Assembly: GCA_965219025.1 (NCBI GenBank)
Contig: OZ244716.1
Span: forward strand, 327,812-391,811
Reading direction: 5' to 3'
Length of the DNA stretch: 64,000 nucleotides
Source: Dehalococcoidia bacterium
GTDB lineage: Bacteria; Chloroflexota; Dehalococcoidia; Lucifugimonadales; UBA2985
This document shows positions 2,037-48,436 of this stretch, piece after piece. The position numbers and the translations under genes were made by a program. Numbering within the stretch: the first letter of the stretch is position 1; every line of letters starts with the position of its first letter. The notes under the pieces were generated by a model. That model ran no database searches. It worked only from the letters and a program-made list of their open reading frames with translations, and was not told the DNA's origin.

Positions 2037-4064
2037 TCAATTCCACACCACGAACGCAACAACGATAAGCACGAGGCCCGCGGATATTCCCGCTCCGTAG
2101 GCCTGCACCTGACCCGTCTCCAGCTTGCCAATTGCTCGCCCCAGGTTCCTCCCAAACCATGCTACCACCGTACCTGCCATGTCCACGACGTTCCGGTCTA
2201 TCCAGTCCGTTGCCAGCGCCAGCCCTCGATAGAAGAGCCCGCGGGTGACCACGTCCTCGTAGAGGTTGTCGAAGTAGTACTTGTGCACCGCGGCGGTGTA
2301 CCCCGGCCCCATGCCGGCGGCGACGTCGTCAGGGTCAACGCTGCGCCGGTAGTACATCAGGTACGCCAGACCGATGCCTGCGAGCGCCACCGCGGTCCCC
2401 AGAGCGGCCACCAGCAGGTTGAAATTCGCAGCGTGCAGGGATACCAGCTCCACGTGGTCCAGGAAATCGACGAACCAGTGCGCCGGAATCACTCCCAAGC
2501 CCCACAGCGAGTTCAGAGGATTGGCCACGAAGCCGGATACGACGGACAGGACAGCGAGCACGGCCATTGGGGCCACCATCACCATCGGCGACTCCGCAAG
2601 GTGTACGCCGTGGCCTCCGCCGTTGTGGCCGCCGTGCTCCGCCTCGACGCCGCCCTGGAACTCGCCGTGAAACGTCATGAAGAGCGCCCGGAATATGTAG
2701 AATGCGGTCATGAACGCGGTCACCAGCGCCAAGTAGAACACAATCTGGCCCTGTGCGCCGCCAAAGTTCCATGCGGCGACCAGAATCTCGTCCTTACTCC
2801 AGAAGCCCGCCAGCGGGAAGATGCCACAGATACTCAGCGCGGCAATCAGGAAGGTCACGTAGGTCCAGGGCATTTGCCTCCTCAACCCGCCCATGTACCG
2901 CATGTCGAACGTTCCGGTGGCGTGGTTCACGCTACCGGAGCCAAGGAACAGGAGCGCCTTGAAGAAGGCATGGTTGAACAAGTGGAAGATCGCCGCCTCG
3001 TATGCGCCAACGCCCAACGCCAGCATCATGTACCCCAGCTGGCTCACGGTGGAGTACGCGAGGACGCGCTTGATGTCGAACATAACAAGGCCCATCGTGG
3101 CCGCGAAGAACGCCGTGAATGCTCCGATCGCCGCCACAACTCCCATCGCCGTGGTGGAGGCCTCGAAGAGCGGGAAGAAGCGCGCCACCAGGAACACGCC
3201 CGCAACCACCATGGTGGCCGCGTGGATGAGCGCGCTGACCGGCGTGGGGCCTTCCATGGCGTCCGGGAGCCAGACGTGCAGCGGGAATTGCGCCGACTTG
3301 CCCACCGCGCCGGCGAATATGCCCAGCGCAACCCACGTCGCGACTCCGCTGCCCATGGCCACTATCTGCGCGCCTGCAAGTTCGCCTCCCTGGGCCAGCA
3401 GGTTGATGTGCCCGATCTCGAACGGGTTGAGGCCCTGGCTCAGGAACGCCTCCCGGTTGAAGAACAGGTACAGAATGGCCAGCATGAAGCCCACGTCTCC
3501 CACTCTTGTGACCAGGAAGGCCTTCTTTGCCGCTGCAGCGGCGGACGGCCTGTCGTGCCAGAAGCCGATGAGCAAGTAGGAGGAGAGACCCACGAGCTCC
3601 CAGAATACGTACACCTGTATGATGTTGCGGGACAGAACCAGCCCCAGCATGGACGCCGTGAACAGCGACATGAAGGCGAAGTAACGGGAGTACCCTGAGT
3701 CGCGTTGCTTCTTCCCGTCGATTACGGGCTCCAGATAAGCCTGCGAGTAGATCTGCACGGCAAGGCTGACGCCGCTGACCACAACCAGCATGATGGCCGT
3801 GAGCGGGTCCATGAGGATGCCGAGGCTTATGTCCAGGTTGCCGACTACAATCCAGGAGTGAGCCGCCCACCCGATCTCGCCCTCGCCGCTTGCGACCTCG
3901 GCCAGTGCCACGAGGGAGAGCACGAACGCGGCGCCGATCGCCAGGATCGTCACGTAGCCGCTCAGGCTGTCGTGGCGGTTCAGGAACGGCCTGATCACGA
4001 GCGCGATGACAAGGAATGAGGCCAAAGGAAGAAACAGGATGGCCCATGCTGCTCCTTCGGTCAT
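2037..4064 (-). CDS. nuoL: NADH-quinone oxidoreductase subunit L
   Basis: 675-aa ORF with ND5/NuoL-like sequence (WLPDAMEGPTPVSALIHAATMVVAGVFL) and long C-terminal helices. Confidence 0.95.
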   Translation of the reverse strand: MTEGAAWAILFLPLASFLVIALVIRPFLNRHDSLSGYVTILAIGAAFVLSLVALAEVASGEGEIGWAAHSWIVVGNLDISLGILMDPLTAIMLVVVSGVSLAVQIYSQAYLEPVIDGKKQRDSGYSRYFAFMSLFTASMLGLVLSRNIIQVYVFWELVGLSSYLLIGFWHDRPSAAAAAKKAFLVTRVGDVGFMLAILYLFFNREAFLSQGLNPFEIGHINLLAQGGELAGAQIVAMGSGVATWVALGIFAGAVGKSAQFPLHVWLPDAMEGPTPVSALIHAATMVVAGVFLVARFFPLFEASTTAMGVVAAIGAFTAFFAATMGLVMFDIKRVLAYSTVSQLGYMMLALGVGAYEAAIFHLFNHAFFKALLFLGSGSVNHATGTFDMRYMGGLRRQMPWTYVTFLIAALSICGIFPLAGFWSKDEILVAAWNFGGAQGQIVFYLALVTAFMTAFYIFRALFMTFHGEFQGGVEAEHGGHNGGGHGVHLAESPMVMVAPMAVLAVLSVVSGFVANPLNSLWGLGVIPAHWFVDFLDHVELVSLHAANFNLLVAALGTAVALAGIGLAYLMYYRRSVDPDDVAAGMGPGYTAAVHKYYFDNLYEDVVTRGLFYRGLALATDWIDRNVVDMAGTVVAWFGRNLGRAIGKLETGQVQAYGAGISAGLVLIVVAFVVWN

Positions 4065-4323: not shown

Positions 4324-4722
4324 CTAACCACTCATCATATTTGCCTGCGTAACATCAACCGTGGAGCGGTTGCGGTACATGGCGATAACGATACCCAGAC
4401 CAAGCGCCACCTCCGCGGCGGCTATGGTAATGATGAACACAGCGAATATGTGCCCGGTTAGCAGGCTGCTCAGCACCGTCTCGCCGAGCGCGACTCCCTC
4501 CGTCATCATAGCGTTCGCCACCTCAGCCTCGGCGCCGGCCGGGTCGACCGCTATCCTCTGCGGCACCACATACCGGCTGAACGCCAGCAGCGCAATGTTG
4601 ACGGCGTTGAACATCAGCTCAATGGACATGAGGACCGTAATCACGTTCCTCTTCGAAAGCGCCCCGTACAGCCCGATGCTGAAGATGACGGCCGATACCA
4701 GAAGGAAGTTCTCCAGGCTCAG
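4324..4722 (-). CDS. nuoK: NADH-quinone oxidoreductase subunit K (CTG start inferred)
   Basis: The track ORF starts at GTG 4644, but the same frame is open upstream and encodes LSLENFLLVSAVIFSIGLYGALSKRN, which is NuoK TM1. The only start-like codon after the upstream in-frame TGA is CTG 4722..4720, which overlaps the nuoJ stop (cCTGA). GGAGG lies 7 nt upstream. Confidence 0.85.
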   Translation of the reverse strand: MSLENFLLVSAVIFSIGLYGALSKRNVITVLMSIELMFNAVNIALLAFSRYVVPQRIAVDPAGAEAEVANAMMTEGVALGETVLSSLLTGHIFAVFIITIAAAEVALGLGIVIAMYRNRSTVDVTQANMMSG

Positions 4723-5285
4723 GACTCACCCTCCCTCTCCCGCACCAGGGCAAGCGCGCCTATCACCGCCGCCAGCAGCACCACGGAGGCCGCCTCCATG
4801 GGCAGTACGAAGTCCTGTAGGAGAAGCCTTGCGATGACCTGCGTGGTGTCGCCGAACACGTCCCGGATGCCCTCTTCCGTGTGGCTGGGATCGACCGCCG
4901 CTGACTCGCCGGGCGCAACTGCGAAGCCCAGGTCGCCCCACTCGTTCCAGTCGGTGACCACAACGGCAAAGGCAATGGCCGCGAACACCAGCCCCGATAG
5001 CAGCAGCGCCGGCAACTGGAATCGGTTGGATGGATTGCCATCCTGCGAATTCCGCGTGAGCATTATGGCGAAGATGATGAGGACCGAAATGGCGCCCACG
5101 TACACCAGCACCTGCACCACGGCAAGGAACTCGGCGTTGAGCAGGACGAACAGCCCTGCAACCACCAGAAAGGAAACAACCAGGAACAGGGCCGCCCTGA
5201 AGATGTCCCTCTCAGATACCACGGCCAGCGCGGAGATTGTCCCCACCGCGGCCAGGCCCCAGAAGGCAATGTCCAGGGGAAACAT
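4719..5285 (-). CDS. nuoJ: NADH-quinone oxidoreductase subunit J
   Basis: 188-aa membrane ORF, ND6/NuoJ-like, in operon position between nuoI and nuoK. Confidence 0.9.
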   Translation of the reverse strand: MFPLDIAFWGLAAVGTISALAVVSERDIFRAALFLVVSFLVVAGLFVLLNAEFLAVVQVLVYVGAISVLIIFAIMLTRNSQDGNPSNRFQLPALLLSGLVFAAIAFAVVVTDWNEWGDLGFAVAPGESAAVDPSHTEEGIRDVFGDTTQVIARLLLQDFVLPMEAASVVLLAAVIGALALVREREGES

Positions 5286-5786
5286 CTAGCGGCCAACCTC
5301 TTCCCATGAGAGGGGCTCCCCGCCCTGAGGGCGGTAGTCACGCTCTTCCAGCTGGGGCCGGAACCAGGTGCTGGGTCGCTTTTCGGCACTTCGAAGTTCG
5401 TCCACCGTGATGATCAGATCGTCGCGGCGGTACTGCCCACGCTCGAAGCCGCTGCCCATGAACAGCGCGTCGTAGGGGCAGGCTTCCACGCACAGGCCGC
5501 AGAACATGCACCGCCCGATGTCGATGTCGAATACGTCGATGGCGTAGGACTCGCCCTCCTGCACGTTGGTGCCGCCCGGATGCGTCTCGATCCGTATGAT
5601 TCCTAGCGGGCAGTACTTGGCGCAGCTTGCGCAACCCGTGCACCTCTCTTCGTACCACACGAACTCCTCGCCTCGGAAGCGGGGCGACTGCGGCACCGCC
5701 TCCTCCGGGTACTGGACCGTGAACGGCTTTCTGAACAGGTTGGTCATCGTGACCATGAGTCCCTTTGCGATTCCTAGACCATACAT
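5286..5786 (-). CDS. nuoI: NADH-quinone oxidoreductase subunit I (2x[4Fe-4S] ferredoxin)
   Basis: Two CxxCxxCxxxCP motifs (CTGCASCAKYCP, CMFCGLCVEACP) and operon position. Confidence 0.95.
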   Translation of the reverse strand: MYGLGIAKGLMVTMTNLFRKPFTVQYPEEAVPQSPRFRGEEFVWYEERCTGCASCAKYCPLGIIRIETHPGGTNVQEGESYAIDVFDIDIGRCMFCGLCVEACPYDALFMGSGFERGQYRRDDLIITVDELRSAEKRPSTWFRPQLEERDYRPQGGEPLSWEEVGR

Positions 5787-43857: not shown

Positions 43858-44535
43858 ATGTTGAAGCGCATCAGGCAATTGGGATTGATTTCAATCATTC
43901 TGGGAATAACTGTTGTTGGGCTGCTTTATGCTTTCGGGGCTAGAACAGTGCCTCACTCAGAGACCGGGAATCTGATTGGAGAAGGTGAAACCTATATTAT
44001 GAGCAGCCCGGGTCTATATCCAGACTTTAGCGTCGAAGAGGTGGCGCGCGTTTCATTGCTCACCGTAATGGGGAGAGTTGGTTCTGGTAGATTCTTGAAA
44101 AAGAACGCGGCCGGTGAGGAAGTGACAGGCACTCAGGATGTTCCAGTCCATCTGTGGTACTTTGCTCAATTCCATGTGGCAGAGTACCTGAAGGGTTCAG
44201 GGCCGGATCAGATAACGATTGCCCTTCCCGCAGGGCCGGATGGAAGCTCAGCAGTCGTAAGGGAAGACAGCCGGTTGGAGCAGGATGGCACGTACGTCCT
44301 GCAACTCTCCAACAAGGAAGGCTACGACGAGTGGTATCTGGGGCCGAACGTCTACAGGGTGTATGAGGGTTCGTATGGGAGGTGGAAGGTGGAGGGGGAC
44401 ACCCTGGTTTCCGACGATGGGAGAGATTTGGCAATGTCCCTCAGTGAAATGCGTGGCAAGGTAGATGCCTCTTGCAGTTCGCAAGTCCAGCCTCAGTTTG
44501 CCACCGCTATTTTGGCATATCAGCACTGCCCCTAG
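43858..44535 (+). CDS. hypothetical N-terminally membrane-anchored protein (low-GC ORF)
   Basis: 225 aa. MLKRIRQLGLISIILGITVVGLLYAF is a signal/anchor sequence. Composition is visibly more AT-rich than the neighbours. No family recognised. Confidence 0.5.
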   Translation: MLKRIRQLGLISIILGITVVGLLYAFGARTVPHSETGNLIGEGETYIMSSPGLYPDFSVEEVARVSLLTVMGRVGSGRFLKKNAAGEEVTGTQDVPVHLWYFAQFHVAEYLKGSGPDQITIALPAGPDGSSAVVREDSRLEQDGTYVLQLSNKEGYDEWYLGPNVYRVYEGSYGRWKVEGDTLVSDDGRDLAMSLSEMRGKVDASCSSQVQPQFATAILAYQHCP

Positions 44536-44715
44536 TCTGTTGGCCGACGTCCTGTGCCGGCTGAACGGCTGAGGCTTTCCTTCAAGCGCGCAACGATTCC
44601 CGCCTTAGAGTGGGAATTCGCGACGGAATGCATGCCCGCGCATATTGACTTTCCGCCCGCCGTACCCTTATATTCCCTTAGTTACGGTCCCAGGCTGTGG
44701 CTAATCGAGGCTGGT

Positions 44716-44726
44716 TGTGCTAATAT
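44716..44726 (+). promoter_or_regulatory. extended -10 element TGTGCTAATAT upstream of the tRNA cluster
   Basis: Matches the window motif. Followed by a CTTCCC-UUCG-GGGAAG tetraloop hairpin (44736..44751), then tRNA-Thr. Confidence 0.4.
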
Positions 44727-44776
44727 TGAGTACAGCTTCCCTTCGGGGAAGTTGTGTTCTTATGCCAGCACACAGT

Positions 44777-44849
44777 GCCCGAGTGGCGCAAGGGCAGCGC
44801 AACCGATTTGTAATCGGTAGGTTAGTGGGTTCGAATCCCCTCTCGGGCT
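44777..44849 (+). tRNA. tRNA-Thr (anticodon UGU)
   Basis: Acceptor GCCCGAG/CTCGGGC; D-arm GCGC-AAGGGCA-GCGC; anticodon arm ACCGA-TTTGTAA-TCGGT; GGTTCGAATCC T-loop. One irregular pair in the T-stem. No encoded CCA. Confidence 0.85.
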
Positions 44850-44932
44850 GTAACGGGACAAAGACGCGCGGAGGTGGGAACGGAAATAGGGGTCTTGGCC
44901 TGCCCCCACACGAATGATACACTAGCACCCGC

Positions 44933-45020
44933 GGAGGGGTGGGTGAGCGGCTAATACCACCAGACTGTAAATCTGGCGCCCGGAAGGGCTTCGTAGGTTC
45001 GAATCCTACCCCCTCCACCA
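44933..45020 (+). tRNA. tRNA-Tyr (anticodon GUA), type II with long variable arm, CCA encoded
   Basis: Acceptor GGAGGGG/CCCCTCC; anticodon arm CCAGA-CTGTAAA-TCTGG; variable arm GCCC-ggaa-GGGC; T-arm GTAGG-TTCGAAT-CCTAC. Confidence 0.95.
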
Positions 45021-45055
45021 GGCAGAGAGCAAGCAAGGACATCAAAAAGCGAAAA

Positions 45056-45130
45056 GCCCACATAGCTCAGAGGTAGAGCACGTTCTTGGTAAGAACGGGG
45101 TCACCGGTTCGACTCCGGTTGTGGGCTCCA
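45056..45130 (+). tRNA. tRNA-Thr (anticodon GGU), CCA encoded
   Basis: Acceptor GCCCACA/TGTGGGC; D-arm GCTC-AGAGGTA-GAGC; anticodon arm CGTTC-TTGGTAA-GAACG; T-arm ACCGG-TTCGACT-CCGGT. Confidence 0.95.
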
Positions 45131-46807: not shown

Positions 46808-47380
46808 ATGGAAGCTGAAATCACCACTGTACGCGACGAGAGAGGTCGCTGGTACATCATCCACACCTACTCCGGGCAGGAGGAGCGGGTCAAGAAGAAC
46901 CTGACCCAGCGGGTGGAGTCCATGGACTTCCACGACCGGATATTCAACGTGGTGGTCCCCACTGAGGAAGAGATCGAGATCAAGGGCGGACGTCGCCGCT
47001 CGGTGCGCCGGAAGGTGTTCCCCGGCTACATCCTGGTCCAGATGGAGATGGATGACGACAGCTGGCACGTGGTGCGAAATACGCCGGGCGTGACCGGTTT
47101 CGTTTCCGCAGAGGACGAGAGGGAGCGCAGACCCAAGCCGGTTCCCCTGGAGGAAAGGGAGGTCGACCGGATCCTCAAGCAGATGGAGTCGGAGGCCCCC
47201 AGGGTGAAGGTCGGATTCATCACCGGCCAGAGCGTACGAATCACCGATGGCCCATTCACTGACTTCATCGGCATTGTGGACACGGTGATGACGGACCGAG
47301 GCAAGATGAGTGTGCTGGTCTCCTTCTTCGGCAGGGAAACCCCCGTGGAGCTCGACTTCCTCCAGGTGGAGAAGCTGTAG
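46808..47380 (+). CDS. nusG: transcription termination/antitermination factor NusG
   Basis: RWYIIHTYSGQEERVKKNL NGN domain and C-terminal KOW (VRITDGPFTDFIGIV). Confidence 0.95.
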   Translation: MEAEITTVRDERGRWYIIHTYSGQEERVKKNLTQRVESMDFHDRIFNVVVPTEEEIEIKGGRRRSVRRKVFPGYILVQMEMDDDSWHVVRNTPGVTGFVSAEDERERRPKPVPLEEREVDRILKQMESEAPRVKVGFITGQSVRITDGPFTDFIGIVDTVMTDRGKMSVLVSFFGRETPVELDFLQVEKL

Positions 47381-47390
47381 GAGACCGCGA

Positions 47391-47978
47391 ATGGCAAGTG
47401 TCGAATACCAAGGCCATAAGTTCGCTAGCTCCCATGAAGCGACCTGTGCAGCCCTATTCGACCTATATGGGTGGGAATGGGTCTCACAGCCACCTGCCAT
47501 ACGCGGCTGGAAGCCTGACTTTCGCCTTACGGGAGAGGAACTCTCTGTATTTGTTGAATGCAAGGGCAGTCTCAAATGGGAAGATGCCCCGCAATTCGTT
47601 ATGGAGTTGAAAAGACTCCAGGATGCAGTCAAAGGATCTTCCGATGAAGTTCTCCTGATCCCTCACTCCCCAAGGCGTGAAGAAAACCCCAAAGGTTATC
47701 CCGCGAACCTCTTGGGGTTCCTGTTGTACGGGAATATCTGGTCCAACGCTGAATTAGGCCGGTGGTCAGGAAAGGTTGGATTCTGCCATAGTGGCAATTC
47801 TTGGAAGGATCGGATTTCCGGAGAATATATCAACGGGCAGTTGGGAGATGGACAACCACCGGACGTTGTAAATGATTGGCGCTTCGCAAAGCACGTGGCA
47901 GAAGGTAAGACAGTAGCTCTCTTCAAGCCGTATAGCGGCTCAGACGTAGTGGTGTGGGAACCGTCGTCTCGCGAGTAG
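47391..47978 (+). CDS. PD-(D/E)xK nuclease-fold-like protein (putative), inserted between nusG and rplK
   Basis: 195 aa. The N-terminal ~60 aa read FASSHEATCAALFDLYGWEWVSQP...WKPDF...VFVECKG, giving E16, D43 and E56-x-K58 with the spacing of restriction-endonuclease-like folds. AGGAG lies 7 nt before the ATG. Composition is visibly AT-richer than the flanks. Confidence 0.45.
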   Translation: MASVEYQGHKFASSHEATCAALFDLYGWEWVSQPPAIRGWKPDFRLTGEELSVFVECKGSLKWEDAPQFVMELKRLQDAVKGSSDEVLLIPHSPRREENPKGYPANLLGFLLYGNIWSNAELGRWSGKVGFCHSGNSWKDRISGEYINGQLGDGQPPDVVNDWRFAKHVAEGKTVALFKPYSGSDVVVWEPSSRE

Positions 47979-48010
47979 GAACACTTCCACAATAGCGGTC
48001 AGGTAAGGTA

Positions 48011-48436
48011 ATGGCAAAGAAAGTTAGAGCCGTAGTCAAGCTCCAGATCGCCGCCGGCAAGGCCACTCCCGCGCCGCCCGTTGGGCCCGCGCTCGGCCAG
48101 CACGGGGTGAACATCATGGCGTTCGTGAAGGAGTACAACGAGCAGACCTCCACGCGTGAGGGCTCCATTGTGCCTGTACACATCACGGTCTTCGAGGACA
48201 GGTCCTTCACCTTCGTGACACGCACGCCCCCCGCATCCGACCTCATACGCAGGTCGGCGGGCGTAGAGAAGGGCAGCTCGGCCGCCAGCACCGAGAGCGT
48301 GGGAAGCATCTCCCGGGACGAGGTGAGAGAGATCGCCCGGACGAAACTGGCGGACCTGAACGCCCCGGACCTTGAGGCCGCAATGAAGATAATCGAAGGC
48401 ACCGCTCGCAGCATGGGCGTTGAGGTGGCCGACTAG
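48011..48436 (+). CDS. rplK: 50S ribosomal protein L11
   Basis: [43 protein letters not shown]. Confidence 0.98.

What the first reader, a model, noticed from the sequence alone, without database searches (positions are those of the whole stretch)
47391..47978. Foreign-looking PD-(D/E)xK-like ORF inserted in the otherwise invariant nusG-rplK junction
secE-nusG-rplK-rplA is among the most conserved gene strings in bacteria, and nusG is normally followed directly by rplK. Here a 195-aa ORF sits between them, with its AGGAG overlapping the nusG stop and its stop 32 nt before rplK. Its composition is clearly AT-richer and it uses rare codons (TTA, ATA). Its N-terminal 60 aa carry the spacing of a restriction-endonuclease-like catalytic core (E16 … P-D43-F … E56-C-K58-G), preceded by the 'F-x-S-x-x-E-a-x-x-A-x-x-f-D-x-x-G-W-E-W' helix. 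That helix is seen in TnsA-N/DUF1064/Hjc-type nucleases. The C-terminal ~110 aa are unassigned. A free-standing nuclease parked inside an essential, highly expressed operon is the behaviour of a homing-endonuclease-like selfish gene. Alternatively it could be a domesticated factor co-expressed with NusG.
Basis: partly seen in the sequence, partly recalled or inferred. Interest (0 to 1): 0.6.

Follow-up and report, generated by a model that had tools for sequence, protein, structure and literature searches.

The report
Mobile nuclease gene splitting nusG-rplK
A 620-bp promoterless cassette carrying one restriction-enzyme-like nuclease gene has landed in the first codons of ribosomal protein gene rplK of an uncultivated Dehalococcoidia bacterium, and it comes, goes and is swapped at this exact spot like a selfish "homing" gene.

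Summary
A 195-aa ORF (47391-47978) lies between nusG and rplK, with GC3 of 0.54 against 0.78-0.86 for its operon neighbours. Ten related genomes have an empty junction with a 10-nt spacer. One of them has an identical NusG.

The protein has an invariant E16/D43/E56-x-K58 motif, and its confident model matches PD-(D/E)xK nucleases (Bax1, Hjc) over the first ~95 residues. The C-terminal half has no known fold. It belongs to no Pfam, NCBIfam or PADLOC family, only to phage family phrog_21138, whose function is unknown.

The insert takes over rplK's ribosome-binding site and ATGGCAA. It brings a 32-nt spacer with a new ribosome-binding site and a second ATGGCAA.

Genomes 95-100% identical in the flanks carry alleles only 66-82% identical. 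A host with only 67% NusG identity carries a 79%-identical allele at the same site. A sister clade sits between gcvPA and gcvPB, and other alleles sit after tRNA-Leu genes. Only about 2% of sampled genomes in the class carry the gene.

The best reading is a free-standing, homing-endonuclease-like selfish gene of a new nuclease family. Cleavage was not tested. Other agents in this scan noted analogous LAGLIDADG and HNH cases on other DNA.

The parts
46808..47380 (+). nusG, the left flank of the insertion. Its transcript presumably carries the cassette.
   Evidence: ORF and translation. Pfam NusG on the orthologues in L024, L026 and L027. The protein is 100% identical in G002, whose junction is empty.
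47381..47390 (+). Native 10-nt nusG-rplK spacer (GAGACCGCGA). With the preceding TAG it forms the AGGAG ribosome-binding site that originally served rplK and now serves the inserted ORF.
   Evidence: The sequence is identical to the spacer of the empty junctions L031, L036 and L037.
47390..47397 (+). Left copy of the 8-nt direct repeat AATGGCAA. This is rplK's original start, now the ORF's ATG-GCA-A.
   Evidence: the repeat finder D3 gives a spacing of 620 nt. The empty-site comparison shows a single copy there.
47398..48017 (+). The 620-bp insert. Its boundary is ambiguous within the 8-nt repeat, so it is equally 47390-48009.
   Evidence: Occupied versus empty junction alignment. Flanks are 95-100% identical and the insert is absent in L031.
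47391..47978 (+). The 195-aa nuclease-like ORF (P0001).
   Evidence: There are 68 close homologues. dN/dS against other alleles at this site is 0.27-0.38.
47391..47666 (+). N-terminal PD-(D/E)xK catalytic domain, residues 1-92. Codons: E16 at 47436-47438, D43 at 47517-47519, E56 at 47556-47558, K58 at 47562-47564.
   Evidence: Invariant columns. AF2 secondary structure. Foldseek matches to Bax1, Hjc and R2 RLE. The profile aligns with Bax1 across the LE...PDF...VE motifs.
47667..47975 (+). C-terminal Trp-rich beta/alpha half, residues 93-195, with the conserved GFCHS...W(K/R)DR(I/M)SG...GDG motifs. Its role is unknown. A DNA-recognition role is inferred only.
   Evidence: Conservation. Modelled alone it reaches only pLDDT 69 and has no PDB fold match. 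Full-length structural matches occur only to uncharacterised phage proteins.
47979..48010 (+). 32-nt spacer brought in with the cassette. It supplies a replacement ribosome-binding site (GGTAAGG) for rplK.
   Evidence: It is absent from empty junctions. It is homologous in all six occupied nusG-rplK sites, including the distant host L041.
48010..48017 (+). Right copy of AATGGCAA, which restores the rplK start.
48011..48436 (+). rplK (L11), the right flank, intact.
   Evidence: Pfam Ribosomal_L11 on the orthologues.

Best explanation
The ORF is the only gene of a ~620-bp promoterless mobile cassette. It encodes a two-part enzyme. The N-terminal part is a PD-(D/E)xK (restriction-endonuclease-like) catalytic core with E16, D43 and E56-x-K58. 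The C-terminal part is a Trp-rich half of unknown fold that probably reads DNA.

The cassette sits in the first codons of rplK. It uses rplK's old ribosome-binding site and ATG-GCA-A for itself. It brings a 32-nt spacer with a new ribosome-binding site plus a second ATGGCAA, so rplK stays intact. It is presumably transcribed by read-through from the secE-nusG operon.

It most likely spreads as a free-standing homing endonuclease gene. When DNA from an occupied genome meets an empty junction, the nuclease cuts the uninterrupted nusG/rplK junction, and repair from the occupied copy copies the cassette in. The window-type left junction looks like a microhomology join at ATG(G/C)CAA.

Shown here: the gene is foreign, the cassette boundaries, the presence/absence and allele polymorphism at one exact site, the decoupling of the gene tree from the host tree, purifying selection, and the nuclease fold and motif.

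Inferred only: nuclease activity, the target site, that cleavage drives the spread, the role of the C-terminal half, and the route of DNA entry.
For: Foreign composition: GC3 0.54 against 0.78-0.86 in the operon, below the 1st percentile of the genome. Every homologue in 23 other genomes also has lower GC than its flanks.

Empty junctions: ten relatives have an empty junction, including G002 with an identical NusG. The own genome has a single copy. Carriers are 3 of 41 relatives and 7 of 400 other genomes of the class.

Allele divergence at one site: window versus L024 and L026 gives flanks 95-100% identical and insert 66-82% identical. ORF dS is 0.57-0.74 against 0.02-0.26 in flanking genes. 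dN/dS is 0.27-0.38.

Host discordance: in L041 the host NusG and RplK are only 67% identical to the window's, below the 82-85% seen within the family. Its allele is nevertheless 79% identical to the L024 allele, at the same site and with the same 32-nt right spacer.

Site fidelity: the alleles at the nusG site form one clade (support 90/78). A sister group occupies the gcvPA-gcvPB junction in four or more genomes, and that junction is empty in the window's own genome.

Size of the mobile unit: alleles 85-91% identical in nucleotide sequence sit in unrelated contexts, and the homology is limited to the ORF plus ~13 nt upstream and 8-40 nt downstream.

Decay, as in a homing cycle: a frameshift in L027, an in-frame stop in L012 and in G242, and split cluster members.

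Fold and motif.
Against: No biochemical evidence exists for cleavage or for any target.

Relatives in phages (phrog_21138) lie in replication and recombination modules, not in obviously variable slots.

The best solved-structure neighbours are structure-specific nucleases (Bax1, Hjc), and only weakly (E ~1e-3, TM 0.2-0.3).

Several alleles lie in accessory or defence-island-like DNA or beside tRNA genes. A host-beneficial cargo gene would also fit that.

Nearly identical alleles at different sites (L005 versus L018) cannot both have arrived by homing to one target.

The rise in divergence toward the insert, a possible co-conversion footprint, is weak and confounded by gene-specific conservation.

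The window allele departs from the family consensus at 5 of 75 conserved columns, so it may be partly relaxed.
Confidence: 0.5

Rival explanations
1. Host-beneficial accessory gene, for example a solitary anti-phage nuclease. It moves passively by ordinary homologous recombination through conserved flanks and by island exchange. Divergent alleles are kept at the same slot by balancing or arms-race selection.
For: Some alleles sit next to defence-type genes: an AAA_21/AAA_15 ATPase and an Mrr_cat nuclease in L016, AAA_15+DUF3696 in L015, an HSDR_N protein in L005, and HicB in L006 and L142. Seven genomes carry the gene just downstream of tRNA-Leu(CAA), a typical island hotspot. Old alleles coexist within near-identical genomes.
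Against: No PADLOC, Pfam or NCBIfam hit. At nusG-rplK and gcvPA-gcvPB the slot holds only this one gene or nothing, inserted at nucleotide precision into an essential operon, which is not how defence islands look. Phage relatives sit in replication modules. No SRA-like or other reader domain was detected.
Confidence: 0.22
2. Phage-derived structure-specific or recombination nuclease (resolvase or flap type) that was left behind or domesticated for DNA repair. Its position in the operon is accidental.
For: The superfamily is phrog_21138, and 48 of 50 distant relatives match it. At least 96 relatives occur in viral contigs. Phage copies lie next to a helicase, exonuclease VIII, a Holliday-junction resolvase, Sak4 and a primase. 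The Foldseek neighbours are Bax1, Hjc and T7 endonuclease I-like proteins.
Against: No prophage surrounds the window copy, and the insert is the ORF alone. The recurrent exact site in distant hosts and the discordant trees need repeated site-specific acquisition. About 2% occurrence does not fit a housekeeping repair role.
Confidence: 0.13
3. Cassette moved by a trans-acting recombinase, such as integron-type secondary-site insertion or a tRNA-targeting integrase. The nuclease itself plays no part in mobility.
For: The unit is promoterless: ORF plus ribosome-binding site plus a short tail. Direct repeats of variable length flank it: 8 nt in the window, 11 nt of the tRNA 3' end in L010, and whole degenerate tRNA-Leu(TAG) copies in L016 and L021.
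Against: No attC-like hairpin lies at the 3' ends; fold z-scores were -2.5 (L024) and between -1.5 and +0.8 (the other four stretches), and no long hairpin was predicted. There are no terminal inverted repeats. No integrase or transposase lies next to the nusG or gcvP copies. The repeat beside L141 and L014 is a dispersed promoter-like element, not a recombination site.
Confidence: 0.07
4. Vertically inherited, fast-evolving gene functionally tied to NusG or L11, lost precisely in most lineages.
For: The window and L027 alleles diverge about as much as their flanks do. The 8-nt repeat would allow precise loss.
Against: Genomes with an identical NusG carry alleles with dS 0.57-0.74. A host at 67% NusG identity has a closer allele. 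G007 and G020 carry the gene at other loci, and their own nusG-rplK junction is empty.
Confidence: 0.03

Closest known systems
Free-standing homing endonuclease genes of T4-like phages (seg, mob; reviewed in PMC2988022; mobE in PMC2790892)
   Same: A single nuclease gene is inserted between conserved, co-oriented genes. It is present or absent among close relatives, has no intron or intein around it, and is compact.
   Different: Those enzymes are GIY-YIG or HNH, they live in phage genomes, and they usually carry their own promoters. This one is a PD-(D/E)xK enzyme in a bacterial chromosome, has no promoter, and captures the start codon and ribosome-binding site of an essential gene.
I-Ssp6803I, the characterised PD-(D/E)xK homing endonuclease of a cyanobacterial tRNA-fMet group I intron (from my own knowledge)
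   Same: Same catalytic superfamily, used for homing into a highly conserved target.
   Different: It is intron-encoded. No sequence match appeared in the PDB searches or among the top 50 Foldseek hits. It has no equivalent of the C-terminal half.
Nuclease domains of Bax1, Hjc and T7 endonuclease I
   Same: Shared core fold and the S-x-LE...PDF...(V/I)E(V/I) motif arrangement.
   Different: The similarity is weak (E ~1e-3 to 0.1). Those enzymes recognise DNA structure and are not mobile genes.
PHROG family phrog_21138 (phage proteins of unknown function)
   Same: The window protein matches it at E 5.6e-6 over its N-terminal half, and 48 of 50 distant relatives match. Full-length fold matches to two uncultured-phage proteins reach TM ~0.7.
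   Different: The phage members sit in replication and recombination modules. The Dehalococcoidia clade is chromosomal and has its own invariant residues H15 and C19.
Free-standing LAGLIDADG or HNH genes at operon junctions noted by other agents in this scan (e1-930261, e1-1225883, e1-1010668; AI notes that I did not check)
   Same: A nuclease gene parked between normally adjacent essential genes. In one note the gene invades the first codons of the downstream gene and carries a replacement start.
   Different: Different nuclease classes and different hosts (DPANN archaea, a WS5-like bacterium).

Membership tests
PD-(D/E)xK (restriction-endonuclease-like) superfamily | The alpha-beta-beta-beta-alpha-beta core fold | tested here: met
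   AF2 model with pLDDT 90 and pTM 0.86, with elements H14-26, E30-32, E44-47, E52-57, H63-79 and E86-90. Foldseek matches to Bax1, Hjc, R2 RLE, VRR-NUC and Cas4-like SSO0001 have probabilities up to 1.0 but weak E-values of about 1e-3.
PD-(D/E)xK (restriction-endonuclease-like) superfamily | Catalytic acidic residues and lysine in the order E...(P)D...(D/E)xK | tested here: met
   E16, P42-D43, E56 and K58 are invariant in 41 homologues. E16, D43, E56 and K58 are at least 90% conserved in 50 distant relatives, where P42 is invariant.
PD-(D/E)xK (restriction-endonuclease-like) superfamily | Metal-dependent phosphodiester cleavage | not testable with these tools
   Needs an enzyme assay.
Homing endonuclease gene (free-standing) | Presence/absence polymorphism at one exact site among close relatives | tested here: met
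   Six occupied and ten empty nusG-rplK junctions, with boundaries defined to within 8 nt.
Homing endonuclease gene (free-standing) | Horizontal spread to the same site, seen as a gene tree discordant with the host tree | tested here: met
   NusG is 100% identical while the alleles are 61-71% identical. NusG is 67% identical while the alleles are 79% identical. The alleles at this site form one clade with support 90/78.
Homing endonuclease gene (free-standing) | The enzyme cleaves the allele that lacks the gene, near the insertion point | not testable with these tools
   No assay was possible, and the target was not identified.
Homing endonuclease gene (free-standing) | Co-conversion of flanking markers | tested here: inconclusive
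   Between window and L026, identity falls from 100% in tuf to 93-97% within ~900 nt of the insert. The signal is small and is confounded by gene-specific conservation.
   Pfam gave no family at E <= 10 for the window protein and no nuclease family for 50 relatives. Hjc appears only as a weak fold neighbour with TM 0.2-0.3.
phrog_21138 | A match to the PHROG profile | tested here: met
   E 5.6e-6 over residues 5-87. 48 of 50 distant relatives match, with a best E of 3e-21.
Type II restriction-modification system | An adjacent cognate methyltransferase | tested here: not met
   The neighbours are nusG and rplK. No methyltransferase was found among the neighbours scanned in other loci.
Integron gene cassette | An attC imperfect hairpin of 57-141 nt at the 3' end | tested here: not met
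   The 3' tail is only 32 nt. Folds of the ORF end plus tail are not distinctly stable, and no long hairpin was predicted.
Known anti-phage defence systems (PADLOC) | A match to a defence protein model | tested here: not met
   No family at E <= 1 for four family members.

The most novel reading that the evidence does not exclude
This is the founding example of an uncharacterised family of site-specific (homing) endonucleases. The family has a PD-(D/E)xK core and a new DNA-reading C-terminal module. It spreads among uncultivated Dehalococcoidia as promoterless, ~600-bp 'operon-junction' cassettes. These cassettes invade the first codons or tight junctions of essential or conserved genes (rplK, gcvPB, the flanks of tRNA-Leu), capture the resident ribosome-binding site and start codon, and bring a replacement for the host gene.
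Probability: 0.42. Interest if true: 0.72.

Novelty: new variant of a known kind. Interest (0 to 1): 0.62.

Why it matters
Free-standing homing endonuclease genes are well documented in phages and organelles. A review of prokaryotic mobile elements (PMC8598171) lists homing endonucleases only within introns and inteins.

This case shows a single nuclease gene colonising one of the most conserved gene junctions in bacteria. The data include clean empty and occupied pairs, several divergent alleles, and a second and a third recurrent site. That makes homing in a cellular chromosome directly testable.

If the enzyme proves to be a rare cutter, it would add a second PD-(D/E)xK homing-endonuclease lineage with a new recognition module. 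It would also give a function to a widespread unannotated phage family, phrog_21138.

The case is also a warning for annotation and phylogenomics: the 'invariant' nusG-rplK string can be interrupted.

Tried and rejected
- Pfam, NCBIfam and PADLOC scans gave no family.
- PDB sequence searches gave only chance-level hits for the single protein. The family profile gave borderline Bax1 and T7 endonuclease I matches.
- The C-terminal half modelled alone reached only pLDDT 69, and Foldseek found nothing.
- The integron-cassette idea was rejected because no attC-like hairpin was found.
- The transposon idea was rejected because there are no terminal inverted repeats and only an 8-nt junction repeat. 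That repeat alone is not unusual within ±250 nt; it matters only because the empty-site alignment places it exactly at the boundaries.
- The repeat flanking the L141 allele turned out to be a dispersed ~90-nt promoter-like element (TTGACT-N18-TATGAT), not a recombination site.
- Rfam found no RNA family in the insert. No convincing terminator lies inside it.
- The search for an empty counterpart of the L005 site in relatives of G123 was uninformative, because synteny is lost.
- The co-conversion gradient is ambiguous.
- The scan of JGI metagenome contigs returned only one short locus.
- The cultured-phage and plasmid collections hold only weak N-terminal matches.
- Literature searches found no description of a nuclease gene at nusG-rplK.

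Full report
**1. Observation**

The window carries tuf, rpmG, secE, nusG (46808-47380), a 195-aa ORF (47391-47978), rplK (48011-48436), rplA, rplJ and rplL, all on the + strand. AGGAG overlaps the nusG stop. The ORF ends 32 nt before the rplK ATG.

GC in 300-nt windows drops to 0.49-0.53 inside the ORF, against 0.60-0.65 around it. ORF GC3 is 0.54, against 0.78-0.86 for the eight operon neighbours. The genome median for long ORFs is 0.76, so the ORF lies below the genome's 1st percentile.

**2. The protein**

Pfam, NCBIfam and PADLOC give no family. PHROGs gives phrog_21138, of unknown function, at E 5.6e-6 over residues 5-87.

The 5.8-billion-protein search found 68 close homologues of about 190-200 aa. 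None has a name in any source. In an alignment of 41 of them, H15, E16, C19, P42, D43, E56, K58, H133 and many tryptophans are invariant.

AlphaFold2 run on that alignment gives a confident single-body model (pLDDT 90, pTM 0.86) with the canonical alpha-beta-beta-beta-alpha-beta order in residues 14-90. Foldseek against the PDB aligns about the first 95 residues with PD-(D/E)xK nucleases: the Bax1 nuclease domain, Hjc, the R2 RLE domain, VRR-NUC and SSO0001. Probabilities are high but E-values are weak, about 1e-3. A profile of 50 distant relatives aligns with Bax1 across S-x-LE / PDF / VE.

Full-length fold matches exist only to uncharacterised proteins of uncultured tailed phages (E 6e-11, TM ~0.7). 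The C-terminal half modelled alone is only moderately confident (pLDDT 69) and has no solved-structure neighbour.

The exhaustive representative search found 792 clusters at E <= 1e-3, mostly 180-200 aa. Of 50 sampled, 48 match phrog_21138. At least 96 relatives lie in viral contigs. The phage copies I looked at lie in replication and recombination modules, next to a helicase, exonuclease VIII, a Holliday-junction resolvase, Sak4 and a primase.

**3. Anatomy of the insertion**

The window's genome (2.15 Mb, one contig) has one copy. Ten relatives of the same genus or family have nusG followed by rplK after a 10-13-nt spacer: TAG-GAGACCGCGA-ATGGCAAAGAAAGTT. One of them, G002, has a NusG 100% identical and an RplK 98.6% identical to the window's.

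Aligned with that empty site, the window has a 620-bp insert flanked by the 8-nt direct repeat AATGGCAA, at 47390-47397 and 48010-48017.

- On the left, the native spacer, its AGGAG and rplK's ATG-GCA-A now start the inserted ORF.
- On the right, the cassette brings 32 nt (...GGTCAGGTAAGGTA) with a weaker ribosome-binding site, plus the second ATGGCAA that restores rplK.

The insert contains no terminal inverted repeats, no Rfam RNA and no convincing terminator. It also lacks an obvious promoter, so expression must come from the operon. That last point is an inference.

**4. Polymorphism at the same site**

Five further occupied nusG-rplK junctions were found in public assemblies:

| Locus | Allele | Source call |
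|---|---|---|
| L027 | P0002 | 17 |
| L026 | P0003 | 16 |
| L024/L025 | P0007 | 15 |
| L042 | P0009 | 59 |
| L041 | P0004 | 58 |

Window versus L024 and L026 gives flanks 95-100% identical in nucleotide sequence, but the insert is only 66-82% identical, with a sharp step at the boundaries. ORF dS is 0.57-0.74, against 0.02-0.26 for tuf, nusG, rplK and rplA. ORF dN/dS is 0.27-0.38. So, within a cluster of genomes about 98% identical in these flanks, the site is either empty (G002) or holds one of at least three old, divergent alleles, all still under purifying selection.

The reverse pattern also occurs. The host of L041 has NusG and RplK only 67% identical to the window's, which is lower than the 82-85% seen in other genera of the same family. 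Its allele is nevertheless 79% identical to that of L024 and carries the same right-hand spacer. The gene tree is therefore decoupled from the host tree while the site stays the same.

In a 42-row maximum-likelihood tree, the five intact nusG-site alleles form one clade with support 90/78. In the larger tree they fall in an unresolved polytomy.

There are three kinds of left junction:
- the window type, which reuses the rplK leader;
- a 48-51-nt spacer in L024 and L042;
- a TAATG overlap in L041.

All right junctions are homologous. This fits a single original insertion that then spread, with the window-type left end formed by a microhomology join between rplK's ATGGCAA and the cassette's ATGCCAAAAGT. 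That is an inference.

**5. Other sites**

None of the 23 genome loci from GTDB species representatives lies at nusG-rplK. The contexts found are:

| Site | Loci |
|---|---|
| gcvPA-gcvPB junction; in the window's genome these two genes overlap by ATGA with no insert | L001, L043/L044, L126, L129-131 |
| Just downstream of tRNA-Leu(CAA), across several allele clades | L002, L006/L142, L008, L010, L013, L018, L020 |
| Between degenerate copies of tRNA-Leu(TAG) | L016, L021 |
| After tRNA-Met | L022 |
| 8-9 nt after fabF | L009, L011 |
| Accessory or defence-like neighbourhoods (AAA_21 ATPase, Mrr_cat, DUF3696, HSDR_N, HicB, rve) | L005, L006/L142, L014, L015, L016 |

Monophyly of the gcvP-site alleles is not rejected (p-AU 0.49).

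Alleles 85-91% identical in nucleotide sequence lie in unrelated contexts, for example L005 and L018, L014 and L015, and the two copies in one genome, L012 and L018. Their homology is confined to the ORF plus ~13 nt upstream, which holds its ribosome-binding site, and 8-40 nt downstream. The mobile unit is therefore essentially the gene alone.

In every genome the gene has lower GC and GC3 than its neighbours.

Occurrence is sparse: 3 of 41 relatives, and 7 of 400 evenly sampled further genomes of the class.

Broken copies exist: a 1-nt deletion in L027, an in-frame TAA in L012 and in G242, and split members of one protein cluster.

**6. Interpretation**

Several points are established:
- The gene is foreign and single.
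- It is inserted at nucleotide precision into tight junctions of conserved operons.
- It is polymorphic for presence and for allele at one site.
- It is horizontally exchanged into that same site across hosts.
- It is under purifying selection and occasionally decays.
- It has the fold and catalytic residues of a PD-(D/E)xK nuclease.

Together these are the comparative signature of a free-standing homing endonuclease gene. I put that reading at about 0.5, because cleavage and target are untested.

Four observations point elsewhere:
- The phage relatives sit in replication and recombination modules.
- The structural neighbours are structure-specific nucleases.
- Some alleles lie in defence-island-like DNA.
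- Near-identical alleles at different sites require at least some non-homing (ectopic) insertions.

The rivals are:
- a beneficial solitary nuclease carried passively (0.22);
- a phage-derived recombination or repair nuclease (0.13);
- recombinase-mediated cassette insertion (0.07), which lacks an attC, inverted repeats and an adjacent recombinase;
- a vertically inherited NusG or L11 partner (0.03), which contradicts.

**7. Comparison with what is known**

By behaviour, the closest things are the seg and mob free-standing endonuclease genes of T4-like phages (PMC2988022, PMC2790892). By catalytic class, the closest is I-Ssp6803I (from my own knowledge). No sequence or top-50 fold similarity to I-Ssp6803I was detected.

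A review of prokaryotic mobile elements lists homing endonucleases only inside introns and inteins (PMC8598171). Full-text searches found no report of a nuclease gene at nusG-rplK.

Other agents in this scan noted analogous LAGLIDADG and HNH genes at operon junctions in other genomes. Those are unchecked AI notes, which I used only as analogies.

I class this as a new variant of a known kind. The behaviour is familiar, but the nuclease family is unannotated and the setting is new: a bacterial chromosome, with no promoter and with capture of the host gene's start codon.

**8. Limits**

- All hosts are uncultivated MAGs.
- The co-conversion evidence is weak.
- The tree support for site-specific clades is moderate.
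- The role of the C-terminal half is inferred only.

Noticed in passing
L147:1016-1450 (genome G010, same family as the window): The gcvPA-gcvPB junction holds a different, unrelated 144-aa ORF whose stop overlaps the gcvPB start (ATGA). By eye it has a K-F-D...G-E-S-K motif, which is D...ExK-like. It has no Pfam or PDB sequence match and is unrelated to the family studied here (hhalign probability 0.1). This junction may be a slot visited by several small nuclease-like genes.
   Followed up: partly
L016:1742-1825, 3844-3924, 4611-4694 and L021:1772-1855, 3844-3924, 4604-4691: There are three tRNA-Leu(TAG) copies. The first is intact. The two that flank the nuclease gene have degenerate 5' halves but identical 3' halves, with a 38-nt exact repeat. 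This looks like repeated insertion with duplication of the whole tRNA target.
   Followed up: partly
L141:4-107, 1444-1547, 2446-2549, 2871-2974 and L014:3868-3994: A dispersed ~90-104-nt repeat containing TTGACT-N18-TATGAT and CCCAATATGGGAAATCCC precedes several small genes, including two divergent alleles of the nuclease gene. It appears to be a portable promoter and leader module in these Dehalococcoidia.
   Followed up: partly
window 47317-47324 and 47379-47386: A perfect 8-nt inverted repeat, GGTCTCCT / AGGAGACC, lies 54 nt apart. It pairs the end of nusG with the ribosome-binding site that originally served rplK and now serves the inserted ORF. It could be a translational-coupling hairpin. 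I did not test it.
   Followed up: no
L003 (OZ220089.1, labelled Candidatus Latescibacterota): A genome labelled as another phylum carries an allele 81% identical in nucleotide sequence to that of a Dehalococcoidia genome (L010). This is either cross-phylum transfer or a mislabelled MAG.
   Followed up: no
L046:3802-4341 and 4932-5582 (viral contig): Two members of phrog_21138 lie on one viral contig, separated by a 176-aa ORF with no PHROG match.
   Followed up: no
L145 and L146 (genomes G013, G023), gcvPA-gcvPB spacer: In relatives that lack the nuclease gene, this junction is still a 170-200-nt variable spacer, with REP-like hairpins such as CCCGCTCAT...ATGAGCGGG. In the window's genome the two genes overlap by ATGA.
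   Followed up: no
window 43858-45130: A stretch with lower GC (0.51-0.57) holds an orphan 225-aa ORF followed by three tRNA genes (44777-44849, 44933-45017, 45056-45127), just upstream of tuf. The same ORF is present in the syntenic loci L024 and L026, so it is not strain-specific.
   Followed up: no
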